A stretch of DNA of 10,519 bases from an uncultured Opitutales bacterium. Its GTDB lineage: Bacteria; Verrucomicrobiota; Verrucomicrobiia; Opitutales; UBA9783. Each line of letters begins with the position of its first letter. Position 1 is the first letter of the stretch. The notes below the pieces were generated by a model, which saw nothing but the letters and a program-made list of their open reading frames with translations, ran no database searches and was not told the origin of the DNA. A program made the translations under genes and the position numbers. Location: positions 1 through 10,519 of the forward strand of contig CAKUSQ010000006.1 in assembly GCA_934691225.1 (NCBI GenBank). The letters are read 5' to 3'. Below, in pieces: positions 1 to 9,334 of this stretch.

Positions 1-369
1 GCATTACTCAAGCTAACAAAAGCTATCGAAGATAATAATTATGCGGACGTTTTAACGGGCATTGAAAATATTATTCATTCAGGTTGTGATGCTTATAGAA
101 CTGTTTTGGACATCGAAATGTATTTTCATGATCAGCTCGTAAATGCTTCTAAAAATGCTCCTCAAGTGAAATATTCGCCTTTTGTTTATGCAAAAATTCT
201 TGAAATTTTAAAATCGGGCGAAGAACAATTGCAACGAGGTTTATCGATAAAAAGTAATTTGGAAGCCCTTTTATTTAAAGCTATTGAATGTACAAAGGTA
301 TCGTCCATTGAAGTTTTGTTGCAAGCGTTGAATTCGCTTCCTGATGAAGTAAAAAAAAACGACTTTTAG
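1..369 (+). CDS. dnaX: DNA polymerase III subunit gamma/tau (DnaX), 3' portion. This is the zero-frame (gamma-like) product; the 5' end lies outside the window.
   Basis: Frame 1 is open from base 1 (ALLKLTKAIEDNNYADVLTGIENIIHSGCDAYRTVLDIEMYFHDQL...), so the ATG at 106 in the ORF track is internal. The helical pattern resembles clamp-loader domain III of DnaX (E. coli ...ALLEAVRQGD..ALL.LVEQL...G.D...LL.EM...LH..., recalled from memory). The frame ends EVKKNDF* with TAG at 367-369, 3 codons after an A9 run. Confidence 0.7.
   Translation, partial: ALLKLTKAIEDNNYADVLTGIENIIHSGCDAYRTVLDIEMYFHDQLVNASKNAPQVKYSPFVYAKILEILKSGEEQLQRGLSIKSNLEALLFKAIECTKVSSIEVLLQALNSLPDEVKKNDF
351..359 (+). other. A9 homopolymer, a candidate recoding site: -1 slippery heptamer A_AAA_AAA or a transcriptional slippage tract
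   Basis: Zero-frame codons are GTA AAA AAA AAC (349-360). This gives an X_XXY_YYZ heptamer of all A, like the E. coli dnaX A_AAA_AAG. The -1 frame has TGA at 345-347 and the zero frame has TAG at 367-369, so the only productive frame-switch window (348-366) brackets this run. Confidence 0.5.
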
Positions 370-728
370 CTTTAAATAATTATATAGAATCTAAGATTGC
401 ACAACCCAAAAACGAAACACTTCCTTCAGATTCTTCTGAAGCAAATAGTTCTATTTTAACGCAGAACTTTGCATACACAGACGCGCTTGTATTTCAAAAG
501 GAAGCCTACGTTTCAAGTTTTGAGCAAGAACCTGTCTATGATTTGGACAGTTTTAAAAATTCTTCAGAAAAAATTGAAAAAACGCTCACACCTCCACCTA
601 ACTTTCAGGATCAATTGAACAAATTTCCTCAAGAAATAAATGCTGCTTTTAAACGTATTTTAAATGCAGAAATTGTTGGAATTTGGCCTATTAAAACAAG
701 TAATTTTTTAAAAAGCAAAAATTCATAA
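351..728 (+). CDS. dnaX: -1-frame continuation of dnaX (tau-specific C-terminal extension), reachable only by a frameshift or slippage at the A9 run
   Basis: Frame 3 is open from 348 to TAA at 726-728. It reads KKKRLLALNNYIESKIAQPKNETLPSDSSEANSS...TPPPNFQDQLNKFPQEINAAFKRILNAEIVGIWPIKTSNFLKSKNS. An S/P/N/Q-rich linker is followed by the motif F.R.L.AE....I.PI, which resembles the E. coli tau C-terminus (LRRFFDAELDEESIRPI). The ORF-track entry 543..728 (TTG start) is the tail of this frame. Confidence 0.55.
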   Translation, partial: KKKRLLALNNYIESKIAQPKNETLPSDSSEANSSILTQNFAYTDALVFQKEAYVSSFEQEPVYDLDSFKNSSEKIEKTLTPPPNFQDQLNKFPQEINAAFKRILNAEIVGIWPIKTSNFLKSKNS

Positions 729-2114
729 CCAATGCGGGAGCAACCGAAGCGCTAACATTAAGAAAATTGTTGGAAGTAAAGCACCTAAAAATAAAGGTAA
801 AGGTTTAACAATTCCATCTTTAAAAAATTTCGATAATAGTGACTGTCCTGCAGGGTTAGGAGCATTAGCAATAACCGTTAAACCACCGCCAACGACAGCG
901 CCTCCAACAACGGATAACTGCAGCTGTGAATCATTTAAGAATTCTGGCACCAACGATGCCAAATAAGTAATGGAAGCATTATCATTAAAAGCTGTTAAAA
1001 AAGCAGAACCGAGAAACAACAATGTATCATTGAGGCGTGACAAAACAATTTCAATCCACCATTCCTGCAAACCTCCATGTGTAACAAGACCTGCTAAAAA
1101 ACATCCTACTAGCAACGATTCCTTAATATTGAGGGGCGATTGGTATTTCTTAAAAATATTAGCTGTTGCCAAAAATGCTAAAAATCCCCACATTAACAAT
1201 GCTGTGTGGTGCGCATTAAACACAACCCAAGCCAAAAAAAAGACATGCAATCCGATGATAACAGCTGGAATTTTTTCATGCGTGTTATCTTCCTTAAATA
1301 CATTTTTAGCCAAAATATTTAAATGATGCAGTTGTTTTGAAAAGATTAAAAAATAAAAGAGCGACGCAATTAAAATTCCTAAGGTAGCGTAAATACCTAA
1401 ATGAGAAAACACGTAGCTATTCGACCAATTCCACTTGGATGCTATCATTAATATAGGTGGAGATGCAAAATTTGTTAAAACACCTCCTACAGAAATATTT
1501 ACGAATAATAATCCTAAAGTTCCATAAGAAAAAAAAGCGCTTGGTTTGTACTTGTAAACTTTTTCAGCTAGTAACATTGCTGAAATCGTCATAGCTGCTG
1601 GCTCTGTGATCAATGATCCCAATAACGGACCTAAAATTAAGATACATAACCACCATGTAGATGGTTTTTCTTGCCCGAACATGTGCACAACTTTTTGAAT
1701 GCAAGCTTCCGCTAAATATAAAATAGGGCGTGTAGAAGCAATTGTCATGATACCAAAAACAAAAATGGGCTCTGTATATTGCCTTGATGAGAAATATTCA
1801 ACCGTCGCATTCCAGCCTTTAAACATTACGAAACATACAACGAGTGGGATTAACCAAATTCCAAAGATAGCCTCTACTTCCCCCAACCAGTGCATTATCG
1901 CTACTTTCGCATCAGACTCACCCTTGGCGCGCAAGGTCTTAGCTTTTGATGCCAATTTGCCTGCAAAGAAACTGTGAAAAACAGCTCCCATAAAAATCAA
2001 AAAAGCAACTAAACGAAAAGGATCCTCAGAAATTTTTTGCATCCACAAATTAAAAAAAGCATCTGAAGGTGTTGCAGCTATGCTAGCTACAAATAATTTA
2101 TGGAACAACAACAT
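723..2114 (-). CDS. Polytopic membrane transporter, ion-transporter-superfamily-like. It may belong to the family usually annotated as 'putative Na+/H+ antiporter' (DUF1504-like); substrate unknown.
   Basis: 463-aa ORF with roughly 11-12 hydrophobic segments. It carries the loop motifs GSLITEPAAM and GGGLTVIANAPNPAG, typical of ArsB/NhaD/CitMHS-type carriers. The family assignment is from memory and unverified. Confidence 0.8.
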   Translation of the reverse strand: MLLFHKLFVASIAATPSDAFFNLWMQKISEDPFRLVAFLIFMGAVFHSFFAGKLASKAKTLRAKGESDAKVAIMHWLGEVEAIFGIWLIPLVVCFVMFKGWNATVEYFSSRQYTEPIFVFGIMTIASTRPILYLAEACIQKVVHMFGQEKPSTWWLCILILGPLLGSLITEPAAMTISAMLLAEKVYKYKPSAFFSYGTLGLLFVNISVGGVLTNFASPPILMIASKWNWSNSYVFSHLGIYATLGILIASLFYFLIFSKQLHHLNILAKNVFKEDNTHEKIPAVIIGLHVFFLAWVVFNAHHTALLMWGFLAFLATANIFKKYQSPLNIKESLLVGCFLAGLVTHGGLQEWWIEIVLSRLNDTLLFLGSAFLTAFNDNASITYLASLVPEFLNDSQLQLSVVGGAVVGGGLTVIANAPNPAGQSLLSKFFKDGIVKPLPLFLGALLPTIFLMLALRLLPHWL

Positions 2115-5444: not shown

Positions 5445-8144
5445 TTACTTGCGCGGATTTTTTAAGGCCGCTTGTGCACAAGCTAAACGAACAATTGGAA
5501 TGCGATTAGGTGAGCAACTAACATAATTTAAACCTACGTTATGGAAAAATTCTACCGAACGTGGGTCACCACCATGTTCACCGCAAATACCTACCTCCAT
5601 TGCTGGTTTTACTTCACGGGCACAATTTACAGATAACTTCACTAACTCCCCTACTCCATCCACATCGATCGATGCAAACGGATTAACCGTAAAGATCTCA
5701 TGATTGATATATGCATTGAAGAATTTGCCCATATCATCTCGACTGATTCCTAGGGTTAATTGTGTCAAATCGTTTGTACCAAAACTGAAGAAATCAGCAA
5801 CCTTAGCAATATCAGCTGAACGAACCGTCGCACGAGGATTTTCAATCATCGTACCTATCATACAAGGAATATCAATATGATGTTGTTCGCACACTTTCTT
5901 TCCAACAGCTTTAATCAATTGCACTTGATTTTCAAGTTCTTTCACAAATCCTACCAAAGGAATCATAATTTCCAAATGGACCTTGTTACCTGATTTAATA
6001 ACTTCAGCTGCCGCTTCAAAAATAGCAGTGGCCTGCATTTCGGTAATTTCAGGGTAAGAAATTCCTAAACGACATCCACGATGACCTAACATTGGATTCT
6101 GTTCGGATAAATTGGCTGAACGACGCTTAATTTCCTCAACAGGCATATTAATAACAGCTGACAAAGCTTCAATGGCTTTTTCATCATGTGGCAAAAATTC
6201 ATGCAACGGTGGATCTAGCAAACGAATGATAACTGGATGGCCCTTCATTGCTTTAAAAATACCGATGAAATCTTCGCGTTGTAATGGCAGCAGTTTTGCT
6301 AAAGCCTTACGTCTCGCAGCTTCGTTATCAGCTAAAATCATTTCACGCATTGAATCAATGCGATGCCCACTGAAAAACATGTGTTCAGTACGACATAATC
6401 CAACACCTTCCGCACCAAAAGCAAAAGCTGCTTCAGCTTGTTTAGGGGTATCCGCATTTGTCCGAATTCCCAATTGACGAAACTCATCGCTCCACGTCAT
6501 AATTTGATGGAACATACGATAGGTTTCACTTTGTTCTGGTTTTAAAGTGCCATTAAGAACTTGCATAACTTCTGATGGCATGGTGTCAATCGCACCTTGG
6601 AAAACTTCACCCGTCGTTCCATCAATTGAAATAAAATCACCTTCATGCAATACAACAGCATTGCGTGTGATTGTTTTTTTATGGTAATCGATGGTTAAAT
6701 CACCTGCTCCACATACGCAAACTTTACCCATTTGACGTGCTACCAAAGCCGCATGTGAACTTACACCACCACGACTCGTCAAAATACCTTCGGCGACCAA
6801 CATACCGCGCAAATCTTCAGGCGAAGTTTCTGCACGACACAAAACAACTTTCTGGCCTTCTTTAGATAATTCCTCTGCACGATCTGCAGTGAAAACAATC
6901 TGTCCACAAGCAGCTCCAGGTCCTGCCGGCAAACCTTGAGCAATACATTTTACATGCTTCTTATGAGCATTATCAAACACAGGAACTAAAAGCGTTGCAA
7001 TTGATTCTGCTGGAATGCGCAATAAAGCTGTCTTTTTATCGATCAAACCTTCTTCTACCATGTCCAAAGCAATTCGAATAGCTGCTAAACCCGTACGTTT
7101 ACCATTACGCGTTTGCAACATAAACAAATGTTCATCTTCAACTGTAAATTCAAAATCCTGCATATCTTTGAAATGATTTTCCAAAGTTTCACGGATTTTC
7201 AATAAAGATGCGTAAGCAGCTGGCATTTCCTCTTTCAATTGAGCGATAGGATGCGGAGTCCGAATACCTGCAACAACATCTTCACCTTGTGCATTAATGA
7301 GATATTCACCATAGAAAACGTTTTCACCGTTCGCTGGATTACGCGTAAAAGCTACACCTGTAGCACTCGTATCGCCTGCATTACCAAATACCATTGCTTG
7401 TACATTGACTGCAGTTCCCCAATCCGACGGAATATTATATTTATGACGATAAATGATAGCGCGTTCATTGTACCAAGAACCAAATACAGCACCGATAGCT
7501 CCTTCCAACTGTTCAAAAACATCTTGAGGGAAATCACATCCTTTTTTGGAACGTATCAGTTCTTTGAAACGAACAATAATTCCTTTTAAATCATCAGCTT
7601 CTAATTCGGTATCATAATGGACACCCTTAGCTTTCTTAACATCTGTCAAAATAGCATCAAAAGGATCGTGCTCATCATCAGAATCCGCACCTACTCCCAT
7701 CACAACATCGCCGTACATTTGAATAAAACGACGATAACAATCGTAAGCAAAGCGAGGATTTTTCGTAATAGTGGCAAAACCTTCAACCGTTTTATCATTC
7801 AAACCAAGATTTAAGATGGTATCCATCATACCTGGCATTGATTCACGTGCGCCCGATCGAACAGAAAATAAGAGTGGATTTTCAGCATCACCAAATTTTT
7901 TCCCTAACTGCGCTTCTACACTTTCAATTGAAGCCCTAATAGCCGCCTTCAACTCAGGCTTGATCTGCTTATTTGCTTTGTAATAATCTAAGCACATGGC
8001 GGTTGTTATTGTAAATCCGGGAGGCACAGGCAATCCAATACGTGACATTTCAGCAAGATTAGCACCCTTACCTCCTAATAACGCACGCATAGTTGCATTT
8101 CCATCGGTTTTTTTACCAAATTCATAAATCATTTTATCTGTCAT
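5445..8144 (-). CDS. ppdK: Pyruvate, phosphate dikinase
   Basis: 899 aa. The N-terminal ATP-grasp region is [30 protein letters not shown]. The phosphohistidine swivel motif is [22 protein letters not shown]. The C-terminal PEP/pyruvate domain has [13 protein letters not shown] and [10 protein letters not shown] strong SD (GGGGAG) lies 6 nt upstream. Confidence 0.97.
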
Positions 8145-8542: not shown

Positions 8543-9334
8543 ATGGATTTTATCGCAGAAAAAAACAAAACTAACATATCCACCTCTCATCAGTTATCAT
8601 CAACCAACAAACAAATTTTACCGGATTGGGAACTCGTCCGCCAATACTTACCTTTGTTAAAATCCATTGTGAGTAAAATGACTCCTAATTTCCCACCTTC
8701 AGCCGATCGGGAAAGTATTTTCACGATTGGTCTGTTAGGACTTATTGCTGCTACTCAGGCATACAACAAACAAACTTACAACGGATGTTTTGGAGCTTAT
8801 GCAAAAGTACGCATAAAAGGTGCACTATTAGACGAACTTCGACGACTAGATTGGTTGCCAAGATCAACGCGAACACGCATAAAATTATTCAAACAAAGGC
8901 TAAACCAATGTGAACAGTCGTTAAAAAGGCCTCTATCGAATGAAGAAATCTGTAATTATTTGCATATTTCTAAAAAAGAACTTATCCAATTAAAACAGCT
9001 TTCTAAACCGTTTGTTTTTGTTCCCTTAGATTTAAAGTCAGACATTGATAAAACGAACAATAAAAATTATACGCTTGAAGAAAAAATTTCCGATACTAAC
9101 CAAGTCAATGGTAGAGAAATTTGCGAAAAAAATGAACTAAAGCAAATATTAAAAGCACATTTAAAAGCGTTACCTAAAATGGTCCAACAAGTTTTTGCAT
9201 TGCATTACTATGAAGGTCTTCGTTTATCAGAAATTGCTGTTATATTTAAACTAAGCGAATCGCGCATAAGTCAAATTCACAGTGAAACTATTGTGAAATT
9301 GCGACAACGTCTTCTAAAATCACTTGAAAAATAA
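8543..9334 (+). CDS. fliA: RNA polymerase sigma-28 factor (FliA/WhiG family)
   Basis: 263 aa. It aligns by eye with E. coli FliA across several regions. Region 2: LVRQYLPLLKSIV...IGLLGLIAATQAYN...FGAYAKVRIKGALLDELRRLDWLPRSTR, with the DW.PRS signature. Region 4: LPKMVQQVFALHYYEGLRLSEIAVIFKLSESRISQIHSETIVKLRQRL. Confidence 0.9.
   Translation: MDFIAEKNKTNISTSHQLSSTNKQILPDWELVRQYLPLLKSIVSKMTPNFPPSADRESIFTIGLLGLIAATQAYNKQTYNGCFGAYAKVRIKGALLDELRRLDWLPRSTRTRIKLFKQRLNQCEQSLKRPLSNEEICNYLHISKKELIQLKQLSKPFVFVPLDLKSDIDKTNNKNYTLEEKISDTNQVNGREICEKNELKQILKAHLKALPKMVQQVFALHYYEGLRLSEIAVIFKLSESRISQIHSETIVKLRQRLLKSLEK

What the first reader, a model, noticed from the sequence alone, without database searches (positions are those of the whole stretch)
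345..728. dnaX is split over two frames at an A9 run: standard decoding gives a gamma-like protein, and tau requires a -1 shift or a one-A insertion
Seen directly in the sequence:
- The zero frame reads ...LPDEV KKN DF and stops at 367-369.
- The -1 frame has TGA at 345-347, opens at 348, and stays open for 123 codons after the run, to TAA at 726-728.
- The only window in which a frame change is productive (348-366) is therefore centred on A9 (351-359).
- A9 contains the heptamer A_AAA_AAA in the correct phase for tandem tRNA-Lys slippage.

The run lies immediately after the domain-III-like helices. This is the same domain boundary where E. coli dnaX shifts at A_AAA_AAG.

The extension looks like a real tau tail. 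It has a low-complexity linker and then ...AAFKRILNAEIVGIWPI, compared with E. coli tau ...LRRFFDAELDEESIRPI.

The logic is inverted relative to E. coli. There the zero frame makes tau and the -1 shift makes gamma. Here the unshifted product is the truncated form, and the replisome-coupling tau form needs recoding, so the event would have to be efficient.

I see no strong hairpin within 5-10 nt downstream and no SD-like stimulator upstream. That favours RNA-polymerase slippage on the A9 tract, as described for Thermus thermophilus dnaX, over purely ribosomal frameshifting.

The trivial alternative is a homopolymer-length sequencing error, with the true tract being A10 or A7.
Basis: partly seen in the sequence, partly recalled or inferred. 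Interest (0 to 1): 0.72.

Follow-up and report, generated by a model that had tools for sequence, protein, structure and literature searches.

The report
Two-frame dnaX joined at A9 run
The replication clamp-loader gene dnaX of this gut Opitutales bacterium really is split over two reading frames at a conserved run of nine A's, so the long (tau) form needs a programmed -1 frame change; this layout was already described by computation in 2013, so this is a well-supported new member of a known kind.

Summary
The zero frame ends ...LPDEVKKNDF* at 367-369. The -1 frame is closed by TGA at 345-347 and then open from 348 to TAA 726-728. A9 (351-359) fills the only productive window.

It is not a sequencing error. 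The identical 370-aa short form occurs on 15 contigs, and the species-level cluster on 22. Sixteen related Opitutales/Verrucomicrobiota loci (GC 0.31-0.50) all carry A9 (one A10) with the same -1 relation.

The -1 ORF is under purifying selection. Its variable linker has 0 stops in 1042 codons, against 56 and 69 in the other frames. It has no conserved start codon or SD. Its C-terminal motif matches the C-termini of in-frame taus of more distant relatives (hhalign 90%, E 1.4e-6).

No conserved RNA structure, SD-like stimulator or Rfam DnaX element flanks the run. A/T runs of 9 or more are purged elsewhere in these loci. This favours RNA-polymerase slippage, with ribosomal -1 shifting not excluded.

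The "reversed" dnaX layout was reported by Antonov et al. 2013, including Coraliomargarita (Opitutae). No experiment was found. Verdict: real, interpretation supported, new member of a known kind, moderate interest.

The parts
1..369 (+). 3' part of dnaX in the zero frame. It corresponds to residues 249-370 of a 370-aa gamma-like DnaX (domains I-III plus one extra helix), with stop TAG at 367-369.
   Evidence: Translation. It is 122/122 identical to the tail of P0181 (370 aa). P0002 and its homologs carry PF13177, PF22608 and PF12169. A P0002-based fusion (the window's -1-frame extension appended) is 46% identical to E. coli tau over 289 aa, all within the DnaX part (E 1e-84).
351..359 (+). 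A9 homopolymer, the recoding site. One extra A in the mRNA, or a -1 ribosomal slip on A_AAA_AAA / A_AAA_AAC, joins the two frames.
   Evidence: It is the only A/T run of 9 or more in the window. It is A9 in 15 of 16 related loci and A10 in one, always with a -1 relation and in two different codon phases. All columns of the run are invariant in alignment A4, while flanking third codon positions vary.
345..347 (+). TGA in the -1 frame, the upstream limit of the productive shift window.
348..728 (+). -1 frame extension ORF (126 codons plus TAA at 726-728), the predicted tau-specific tail SKKKRLLALNNY...GIWPIKTSNFLKSKNS.
   Evidence: Forty-four small-ORF homologs were found. The whole-ORF dN/dS is 0.18-0.36 in this frame and about 1 or higher in the other frames.
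351..398 (+). Conserved start of the extension, KKKRLxxLxxxIxxK, predicted as a helix directly after the run.
   Evidence: KKKR is invariant in A1 and KKK[RTL] is seen in all loci. The AF2 model has a helix at residues 3-17.
399..485 (+). Variable, low-complexity linker that is predicted disordered.
   Evidence: pLDDT is below 50 for residues 24-35 and 40-42. Length and sequence vary among loci. The linker is nevertheless kept open: 0 stops in 1042 codons over 16 loci, against 56 and 69 in the other frames.
486..710 (+). Conserved C-terminal block: L.F..E...F E.EP.YD.D.F ... PPP.F ... LP....FK.IL....VGIWPI. It is the putative Pol III alpha-binding end of tau.
   Evidence: Y64, F69, P82-84, F86, F101, L105, G111, W113, P114 and I115 are invariant in 40 sequences. 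dN/dS is 0.03-0.20. hhalign against the C-termini of in-frame taus gives probability 90.4%, E 1.4e-6.
377..379 (+). TAA in the +1 frame. Transcripts with one A fewer (or two more) would give a second short form, ...VKKTTFSFK*.
   Evidence: A near stop in this frame is present in all four loci examined.

Best explanation
This is the 3' end of dnaX from a gut/rumen-type Opitutales (Verrucomicrobiota) bacterium, with the 'reversed' two-ORF layout.

Standard decoding ends two to seven codons after a conserved A9 run. It yields a 370-aa gamma-like clamp-loader subunit (domains I-III).

A fraction of expression enters the -1 frame at the run. It yields a tau of about 490 aa, made of four parts:
- the same N-terminus;
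- a short helix;
- a disordered variable linker;
- a conserved C-terminal motif that, by homology with in-frame taus, is the polymerase-coupling end.

The frame change most likely arises when RNA polymerase slips on the A9/T9 tract and inserts one extra A, so that normal translation of those mRNAs gives tau. A -1 ribosomal slip of tRNA-Lys on A_AAA_AAA may contribute.

Shown: the layout, its conservation, the coding constraint and the tail homology. Inferred: the slippage mechanism, its efficiency and alpha binding.
For: Layout.

Not an error: the identical short form is on 15 contigs, and 22 contigs in the species-level cluster all end ...DEVKKNDF.

Conservation of the site:
- 16 loci with GC 0.31-0.50 carry A9 or A10 and a -1 relation.
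- L013 and L015 have the run in another codon phase.
- The productive windows of all loci intersect only on the run.

The extension is translated as a continuation of dnaX:
- ω is 0.03-0.2 in the C-terminal block in the -1 frame only.
- The linker has 0 stops in 1042 codons, against 125 in the other two frames.
- There is no conserved start or SD; L006 has no ATG/GTG/TTG in 105 codons.
- No promoter-like site was found.
- KKKR-L conservation begins at the run.
- Contig L020, with A10, encodes exactly the predicted fusion.

Tau identity: hhalign of A2 against the C-termini of single-ORF Opitutae taus gives 90.4%, E 1.4e-6.

Slippage:
- RNAalifold finds 0 conserved pairs in -75..+90.
- Local folds have z of about 0.
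- There is no Rfam DnaX element.
- Other than the dnaX runs, A/T runs of 9 or more number 1, against about 20.6 expected in 87 kb.
- A single-ORF relative has an in-frame A10 at the same site with stops 8 and 6 codons later in the other two frames, the Thermus-type layout.

Precedent: PMC3711429, PMC5009743 and PMC1088944.
Against: - No RNA or protein data exist, so neither the frame change nor its level has been observed.
- Pfam, PDB sequence profiles and hhalign against E. coli tau domain V find no tau similarity.
- The homology to tau tails rests on 39 aligned columns of a region I chose by eye.
- The AF2 model of the tail is of low confidence (pLDDT 64.9).
- Linker ω (0.2-0.9) does not by itself discriminate between frames.
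- Some AT-rich bacteria tolerate long A runs without slippage (PMC1088944).
- The loci are partly related, so the counts are not fully independent.
Confidence: 0.8

Rival explanations
1. Purely ribosomal -1 programmed frameshifting: tandem tRNA-Lys slippage on A_AAA_AAA or A_AAA_AAC of a faithful A9 mRNA produces tau, with no contribution from RNA polymerase.
For: Both heptamers are present in the correct phase. Only the -1 direction is ever required in the 16 loci. By the rule of PMC3711429, a single direction argues for ribosomal frameshifting.
Against: No conserved SD-like element or downstream structure was found. In E. coli, A_AAA_AAA and A_AAA_AAC are much less shift-prone than A_AAA_AAG (PMC5009743), yet no locus uses AAG. 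The run is kept at 9 or more A's even when only 7 are needed, and in two codon phases. A/T runs of 9 or more are purged elsewhere.
Confidence: 0.13
2. Split gene: the downstream ORF is translated on its own as a small protein (a detached tau C-terminal module), and DnaX exists only as the 370-aa form.
For: Gene callers annotate it as a separate 70-196 aa ORF in all 44 clusters and in 24 of the 25 hits (the other judged spurious) in 1.84 billion representatives.
Against: The called starts are at inconsistent positions. There is no conserved start or SD, and L006 has no start codon in 105 codons. The unconserved linker stays open right back to the run in all loci. There is no promoter-like site. 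In-frame fusions exist in relatives.
Confidence: 0.04
3. Homopolymer sequencing or assembly error, or a recent inactivating frameshift: the true gene is a single ORF, or the tail is a decaying pseudogene.
For: One related 2.2-kb contig (L020) has A10 and a single 511-aa ORF. Homopolymers are error-prone.
Against: The same break is found on 22 contigs of the species cluster from ENA, Logan and NCBI. It is also in 16 divergent loci. Every DnaX cluster at 60% identity or more except L020 is truncated. Purifying selection acts on the tail.
Confidence: 0.01
4. DNA-level phase variation: replication slippage between A9 and A10 heritably switches cells between a gamma-default state and a tau-only state, and this, rather than RNA-level recoding, supplies tau.
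For: An A10 variant (L020) exists that is 94% identical in nucleotides to the A9 locus L009. PMC1088944 discusses replicational slippage on such runs.
Against: Tau is the polymerase-coupling subunit, which is established knowledge for E. coli, so A9 cells without recoding should be unfit. Yet A9 is the assembled consensus in essentially all genomes. L020 is a single contig in one sample.
Confidence: 0.02

Closest known systems
Two-ORF ('reversed') dnaX with a poly-A junction, predicted by GeneTack (Antonov et al. 2013, NAR, PMC3711429; restated in Atkins et al. 2016, PMC5009743)
   Same: The DnaX N-terminal ORF stops just after a poly-A run, the second ORF is in the -1 frame, and tau needs recoding. 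Transcriptional realignment was proposed by analogy with Thermus. The published set includes Coraliomargarita akajimensis, which I recall to be in the same class (Opitutae) as this window. Coraliomargarita DnaX proteins also appear among my truncated homologs (P0163 and P0179, 380 aa).
   Different: Nine of the published genes have A10, while this clade is fixed at A9. The clade here is a set of gut/rumen Opitutales MAGs that was not in the 2013 genome set. This study adds the codon-phase variant, the tail motif, the selection analysis and the run-depletion analysis. Neither study has experimental proof.
Thermus thermophilus dnaX transcriptional slippage at A9 (Larsen et al. 2000, as summarised in PMC1088944 and PMC5009743)
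   Same: An A9 run lies late in dnaX. The products differ by the tau C-terminal region. Stops lie close to the run in the frames that give the short form. No ribosomal stimulators are required.
   Different: In Thermus tau is the zero-frame product and gamma comes from slipped mRNAs; here the roles are reversed. A marine relative (L021) has the Thermus-type layout at the homologous site.
E. coli dnaX -1 programmed ribosomal frameshift (A_AAA_AAG with an upstream SD-like element and a downstream stem-loop)
   Same: Same gene, same -1 direction, a lysine-codon slippery site located after domain III, and two products that share the N-terminus.
   Different: The shift makes tau, not gamma. The heptamer ends in A/C, not G. 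No SD-like element, stem-loop or Rfam match was found. The site is about 35 residues closer to domain III.
Shigella flexneri mxiE and IS-element ORFA-ORFB fusions made by transcriptional slippage on 9A/9T runs (PMC1088944)
   Same: Two overlapping ORFs are fused when RNA polymerase inserts one nucleotide in a 9-nt homopolymer, and the longer product needs the slip.
   Different: The genes are unrelated and the role is regulatory or transpositional, not an essential replisome subunit.

Membership tests
Two-ORF (reversed) dnaX, tau by recoding at poly-A (Antonov et al. 2013) | The upstream ORF is DnaX (ATPase domains I-III). | tested here: met
   The window's zero frame is identical to the tail of P0181. 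Homologs carry PF13177, PF22608 and PF12169. A P0002-based fusion (the window's -1-frame extension appended) is 46% identical to E. coli tau over 289 aa, all within the DnaX part.
Two-ORF (reversed) dnaX, tau by recoding at poly-A (Antonov et al. 2013) | A zero-frame stop lies directly after the shift site, and the second ORF is adjacent in the -1 frame. | tested here: met
   TAG at 367-369; the -1 frame is open from 348 to 725. The same holds in 16 loci.
Two-ORF (reversed) dnaX, tau by recoding at poly-A (Antonov et al. 2013) | A poly-A stretch (7-10 A) sits at the junction and is conserved among relatives. | tested here: met
   A9 at 351-359. A9 in 15 loci and A10 in one.
Two-ORF (reversed) dnaX, tau by recoding at poly-A (Antonov et al. 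2013) | The second ORF encodes the tau-specific C-terminal region. | tested here: inconclusive
   hhalign against in-frame Opitutae tau C-termini gives 90.4%, E 1.4e-6 over 39 columns. There is no Pfam, PDB or E. coli domain V similarity. No DnaB- or alpha-binding test is possible.
Two-ORF (reversed) dnaX, tau by recoding at poly-A (Antonov et al. 2013) | A trans-frame tau protein is actually produced. | not testable with these tools
   This needs cDNA sequencing, proteomics or a reporter assay. No experimental report for this class was found in the paper library.
E. coli-type dnaX programmed ribosomal frameshift element (Rfam DnaX element) | A_AAA_AAG heptamer. | tested here: not met
   The heptamers are A_AAA_AAA and A_AAA_AAC. 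No locus has AAG.
E. coli-type dnaX programmed ribosomal frameshift element (Rfam DnaX element) | An upstream SD-like stimulator and a downstream stem-loop. | tested here: not met
   RNAalifold finds 0 pairs. Fold z-scores are -0.58, 0.03 and -0.20. No Rfam hit to a DnaX element at E up to 10. No conserved GGAGG-like motif is present in A4.
E. coli-type dnaX programmed ribosomal frameshift element (Rfam DnaX element) | The frameshift yields the short gamma, and the zero frame yields tau. | tested here: not met
   The arrangement is reversed here.
Thermus-type dnaX transcriptional slippage | A homopolymer of about 9 A in the sense strand late in dnaX. | tested here: met
   A9 at 351-359.
Thermus-type dnaX transcriptional slippage | Tau is in the zero frame, with stops close by in both other frames. 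| tested here: not met
   The zero and +1 frames stop (367-369 and 377-379), and the -1 frame carries tau. The Thermus layout is seen instead in relative L021.
Thermus-type dnaX transcriptional slippage | The mRNA population is heterogeneous in the number of A's. | not testable with these tools
   No transcript data are available. There is indirect support only: A/T runs of 9 or more are depleted elsewhere (1 observed against about 20.6 expected).

The most novel reading that the evidence does not exclude
In this Opitutales clade the tau:gamma ratio may be set entirely by RNA-polymerase slippage with gamma as the default product. The A9/A10 tract may also be polymorphic at the DNA level (L020). 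Lineages or subpopulations could then flip between 'gamma-default' and 'tau-default' replisome stoichiometries by single-A changes. This would be a natural, evolvable dial on replisome composition, visible as both layouts at one homologous site within Opitutae (window compared with L021). The tail would carry a clade-specific polymerase-binding motif (..FK.ILNG.IVGIWPI) unlike the characterised E. coli domain V.
Probability: 0.12. Interest if true: 0.55.

Novelty: new member of a known kind. Interest (0 to 1): 0.35.

Why it matters
Tau couples the polymerases and the helicase in the replisome. A genome in which standard decoding cannot make tau depends on recoding for an essential function.

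The practical consequences are for annotation. Gene callers split this dnaX into a 'gamma/tau' gene of about 370 aa and an anonymous small ORF. This happened in all 44 clusters and in 24 of the 25 hits (the other judged spurious) in the representative library. The tau tail of a whole gut/rumen Verrucomicrobiota clade is therefore unannotated, and its conserved C-terminal motif has no family.

The clade also holds both layouts, tau-by-slippage and gamma-by-slippage, at one homologous A-run. That makes it a clean natural system for testing how slippage efficiency sets replisome stoichiometry, which has not been tested experimentally for the reversed type as far as the searched literature shows.

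Tried and rejected
- Pfam on the window fragments alone gave nothing, even for the DnaX part. Identity had to come from full-length homologs.
- Pfam on all 40 tail sequences at E up to 10 gave only noise.
- The PDB profile search gave only a spurious PPPDF match to connexin.
- hhalign against E. coli tau domain V gave no similarity.
- The AlphaFold model of the tail had pLDDT 64.9 and was mostly disordered, so a fold search was not worth running.
- The metagenome-contig scan with the tail profile returned only 2 loci, and genome contigs returned 5. Most comparative DNA came from the look-up of encoding contigs.
- The exhaustive representative search found no full-length tau with this tail. It clusters at 50% identity, so it hid P0074, and the 'never fused' claim had to be withdrawn.
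- Linker dN/dS was not discriminating. The stop-codon count was used instead.
- The Rfam scan and the promoter/terminator scan were negative.
- Independent initiation, sequencing error, pseudogene decay and pure phase variation were considered and rejected or down-weighted, as listed under the rival explanations.

Full report
**1. What is in the sequence**

The window starts inside a gene.
- Frame 1 reads ...SSIEVLLQALNSLPDEVKKNDF and stops at TAG 367-369.
- Frame 3 (the -1 frame) has TGA at 345-347. It then reads SKKKRLLALNNY...AAFKRILNAEIVGIWPIKTSNFLKSKNS and stops at TAA 726-728, a total of 126 codons.
- The run of nine A's occupies 351-359.
- The frame reached by deleting one A stops at 377-379.

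An A9 run alone is not remarkable in a 36% GC window, because 180 of 200 shuffles contain one.

**2. Is it dnaX, and from what organism?**

The fragment alone hits no Pfam model. A search with the conceptually fused protein found DnaX proteins of 370-375 aa that carry PF13177, PF22608 and PF12169. They cover only the zero-frame half of the query.
- P0181 (370 aa) is 122/122 identical to the window.
- A fusion of the 97%-identical homolog P0002 with the window's -1-frame extension is 46% identical to E. coli tau over 289 aa, all within the DnaX part (E 1e-84).
- Related genome contigs are labelled as uncultured Opitutales or Verrucomicrobia MAGs from human gut and rumen.

**3. Not a sequencing error**

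All homologs end at the same place...LP[DE][DE]VKKND.., SKKKPL.. or VKKKDTAI.
- The species-level cluster holds six distinct 370-aa sequences on 22 contigs from ENA, Logan and NCBI. The variant identical to the window accounts for 15 of those contigs, the longest of them 848 kb.
- Among the DnaX clusters at 60% identity or more to P0002, all are 365-386 aa except one.

**4. The two-frame layout is conserved**

I collected 16 distinct loci with GC from 0.31 to 0.50.
- Every locus has a homopolymer at the junction: A9 in 15 loci, and A10 in L001, where the following C is replaced by A.
- In every locus the tail is in the -1 frame.
- In L013 and L015 the run sits in a different codon phase (AGT AAA AAA AAA CCT), and a -1 frame TAA overlaps its first base. 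The run is still A9 and the relation is still -1.
- The intersection of the productive windows of all loci is essentially the run itself.
- In the nucleotide alignment the run is invariant, while flanking third codon positions vary freely.

**5. The extension is a real coding sequence entered from dnaX**
- A profile of the tails finds 44 clusters, all of them small called ORFs of 70-196 aa with no Pfam domain.
- An exhaustive HMM search of 1.84 billion representatives finds 25 hits. All are small ORFs of the same kind except one 1561-aa protein (P0065), which I judged a spurious repeat match.
- Twelve positions are invariant in 40 sequences.
- Among six loci 86-94% identical in nucleotides, ω for the C-terminal block is 0.03-0.20 in the -1 frame and mostly above 1 in the other frames.
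- The linker between the run and that block is poorly conserved (ω 0.2-0.9). Even so, it contains 0 stops in 1042 codons across the 16 loci, against 56 and 69 in the other two frames.
- Gene callers choose inconsistent starts.
- There is no conserved ATG/GTG/TTG or SD. L006 has no start codon at all in the 105 codons before the PPP motif.
- No promoter-like or terminator-like site lies in 300-900.
- Conservation (KKKR-L..L) begins at the run.

**6. Is it a tau tail?**

Direct tests against known tau models failed:
- Pfam;
- PDB sequence profiles;
- hhalign against E. coli domain V (probability 0.06%).

AlphaFold predicts a mostly disordered tail with short helices at residues 3-17, 86-91 and 95-105 (mean pLDDT 64.9).

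Relatives at 51-55% identity, however, include many single-ORF DnaX proteins of 446-524 aa. They have KKK at the homologous position and a C-terminal motif LP.ST+..L...F+A.F. A profile-profile comparison of the 40 tails with 16 of these C-termini gives probability 90.4% and E 1.4e-6 over 39 columns. The end of the extension is therefore probably homologous to the C-terminus of in-frame taus. Its function, alpha binding, is inferred from E. coli knowledge and has not been tested.

**7. Two informative exceptions**
- L020 is a 2.2-kb JGI contig, 94% identical to L009. It has A10 followed by CGC and encodes a 511-aa protein that is exactly the predicted fusion ...PEDVKKKRLLTVLEN.... It is either a homopolymer error or a real A9/A10 polymorphism.
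- L021 is a marine relative whose protein was seen on at least 22 contigs. It has an in-frame A10 at the homologous site, with stops 8 and 6 codons later in the other two frames. This is the Thermus thermophilus layout.

Both layouts therefore coexist among these Opitutae/Verrucomicrobiota DnaX homologs at one site.

**8. Mechanism**
- RNAalifold on -75..+90 of the 16 loci predicts no pairs.
- Local folds of the window have z-scores of -0.58, 0.03 and -0.20.
- No Rfam DnaX frameshift element is present.
- No SD-like motif is conserved.
- In 87 kb of these loci, the only A/T runs of 9 or more are the 16 dnaX runs and one intergenic T9. A first-order Markov model expects about 20.6. This is the signature that Baranov et al. 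2005 (PMC1088944) associate with slippage-prone RNA polymerase.

Together with the fixed length of 9 or more A's in two codon phases, this favours insertion of one A by RNA polymerase. A -1 ribosomal slip on A_AAA_AAA or A_AAA_AAC cannot be excluded and may add to it. In E. coli these heptamers are much weaker than A_AAA_AAG (PMC5009743).

**9. Comparison with what is known**

Antonov et al. [quoted passage not shown]
- They found 17 genes in 12 genera.
- Twelve have poly-A stretches: nine with A10, and one each with A9, A8 and A7.
- The nine A10 cases include Coraliomargarita akajimensis, which from my own knowledge belongs to the Opitutae.
- They proposed transcriptional realignment by analogy with Thermus.

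Atkins et al. [quoted passage not shown] I found no experimental test of the reversed type.

The window is therefore a new member of a known kind. It comes from a clade that was not in the 2013 set, and the comparative support is considerably stronger.

**10. Verdict**
- The feature is real.
- The supposed similarity to the E. coli tau C-terminus is not supported.
- The site lies somewhat closer to domain III than in E. coli.
- Interest is moderate: the idea is published but untested, and the clade offers both layouts for comparison.

Noticed in passing
L020 1688-1697 (JGI 3300026525, contig Ga0256870_1031386): A close relative, 94% identical in nucleotides to L009, has A10 instead of A9. The two frames are fused into one 511-aa DnaX (P0074) with exactly the predicted junction ...DVKKKRLL.... 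It is a single 2.2-kb contig, so this could be an assembly error or a real A9/A10 polymorphism.
   Followed up: partly
L021 1429-1438 (ENA ERZ909104, marine metagenome; protein P0156): A 54%-identical relative has a single-ORF 466-aa tau with an in-frame A10 at the homologous site. Stops lie 8 and 6 codons after the run in the other two frames, which is the Thermus-type layout (gamma by slippage). Both layouts thus exist in these Opitutae relatives.
   Followed up: partly
L013 2409-2417; L015 2445-2453: In this sub-clade the A9 run lies in a different codon phase (AGT/TGT AAA AAA AAA CC.), and a -1 frame TAA overlaps the first A. The productive shift window therefore starts inside the run. The run is still A9 and the shift is still -1.
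   Followed up: yes
all 16 loci (87 kb); L009 477-485: Apart from the dnaX runs, the only A/T homopolymer of 9 or more is one T9 just upstream of an SD plus ATG (intergenic). About 20.6 are expected under a first-order Markov model. Runs of 7 and 8 are also depleted (55 against 75, and 16 against 31).
   Followed up: yes
window 296-728 (protein P0001, ENA 672-nt contig): An ENA gene call of 146 aa reads straight through three TGA codons as Trp (MYKGIVHWSFVASVEFASWWSKKKR...). The caller apparently applied a TGA=Trp code to a short contig. It is an annotation artefact, but it gives independent support for the A9 sequence.
   Followed up: partly
window 723-728: The extension's stop (TAA 726-728) overlaps the 3' end of the convergent Na+/H+ antiporter gene (723-2114, minus strand, PF07399). 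No terminator-like hairpin was found between them. The same antiporter, TP_methylase and TyrRS neighbours recur in L003.
   Followed up: partly
L001 1-892; L015 2847-5331: Type III secretion-like genes (CesT chaperone, IpgD-like phosphatase, secretin with a T3S_SPI-1_N0 hint) lie beside dnaX in two of the gut Opitutales relatives. L012 has FliD nearby.
   Followed up: no
window 8543-9334: A 263-aa sigma-70 family protein with regions 2 and 4 only (FliA/sigma-28-like size) lies downstream of a PPDK gene (5445-8144, minus strand). It was not examined further.
   Followed up: no
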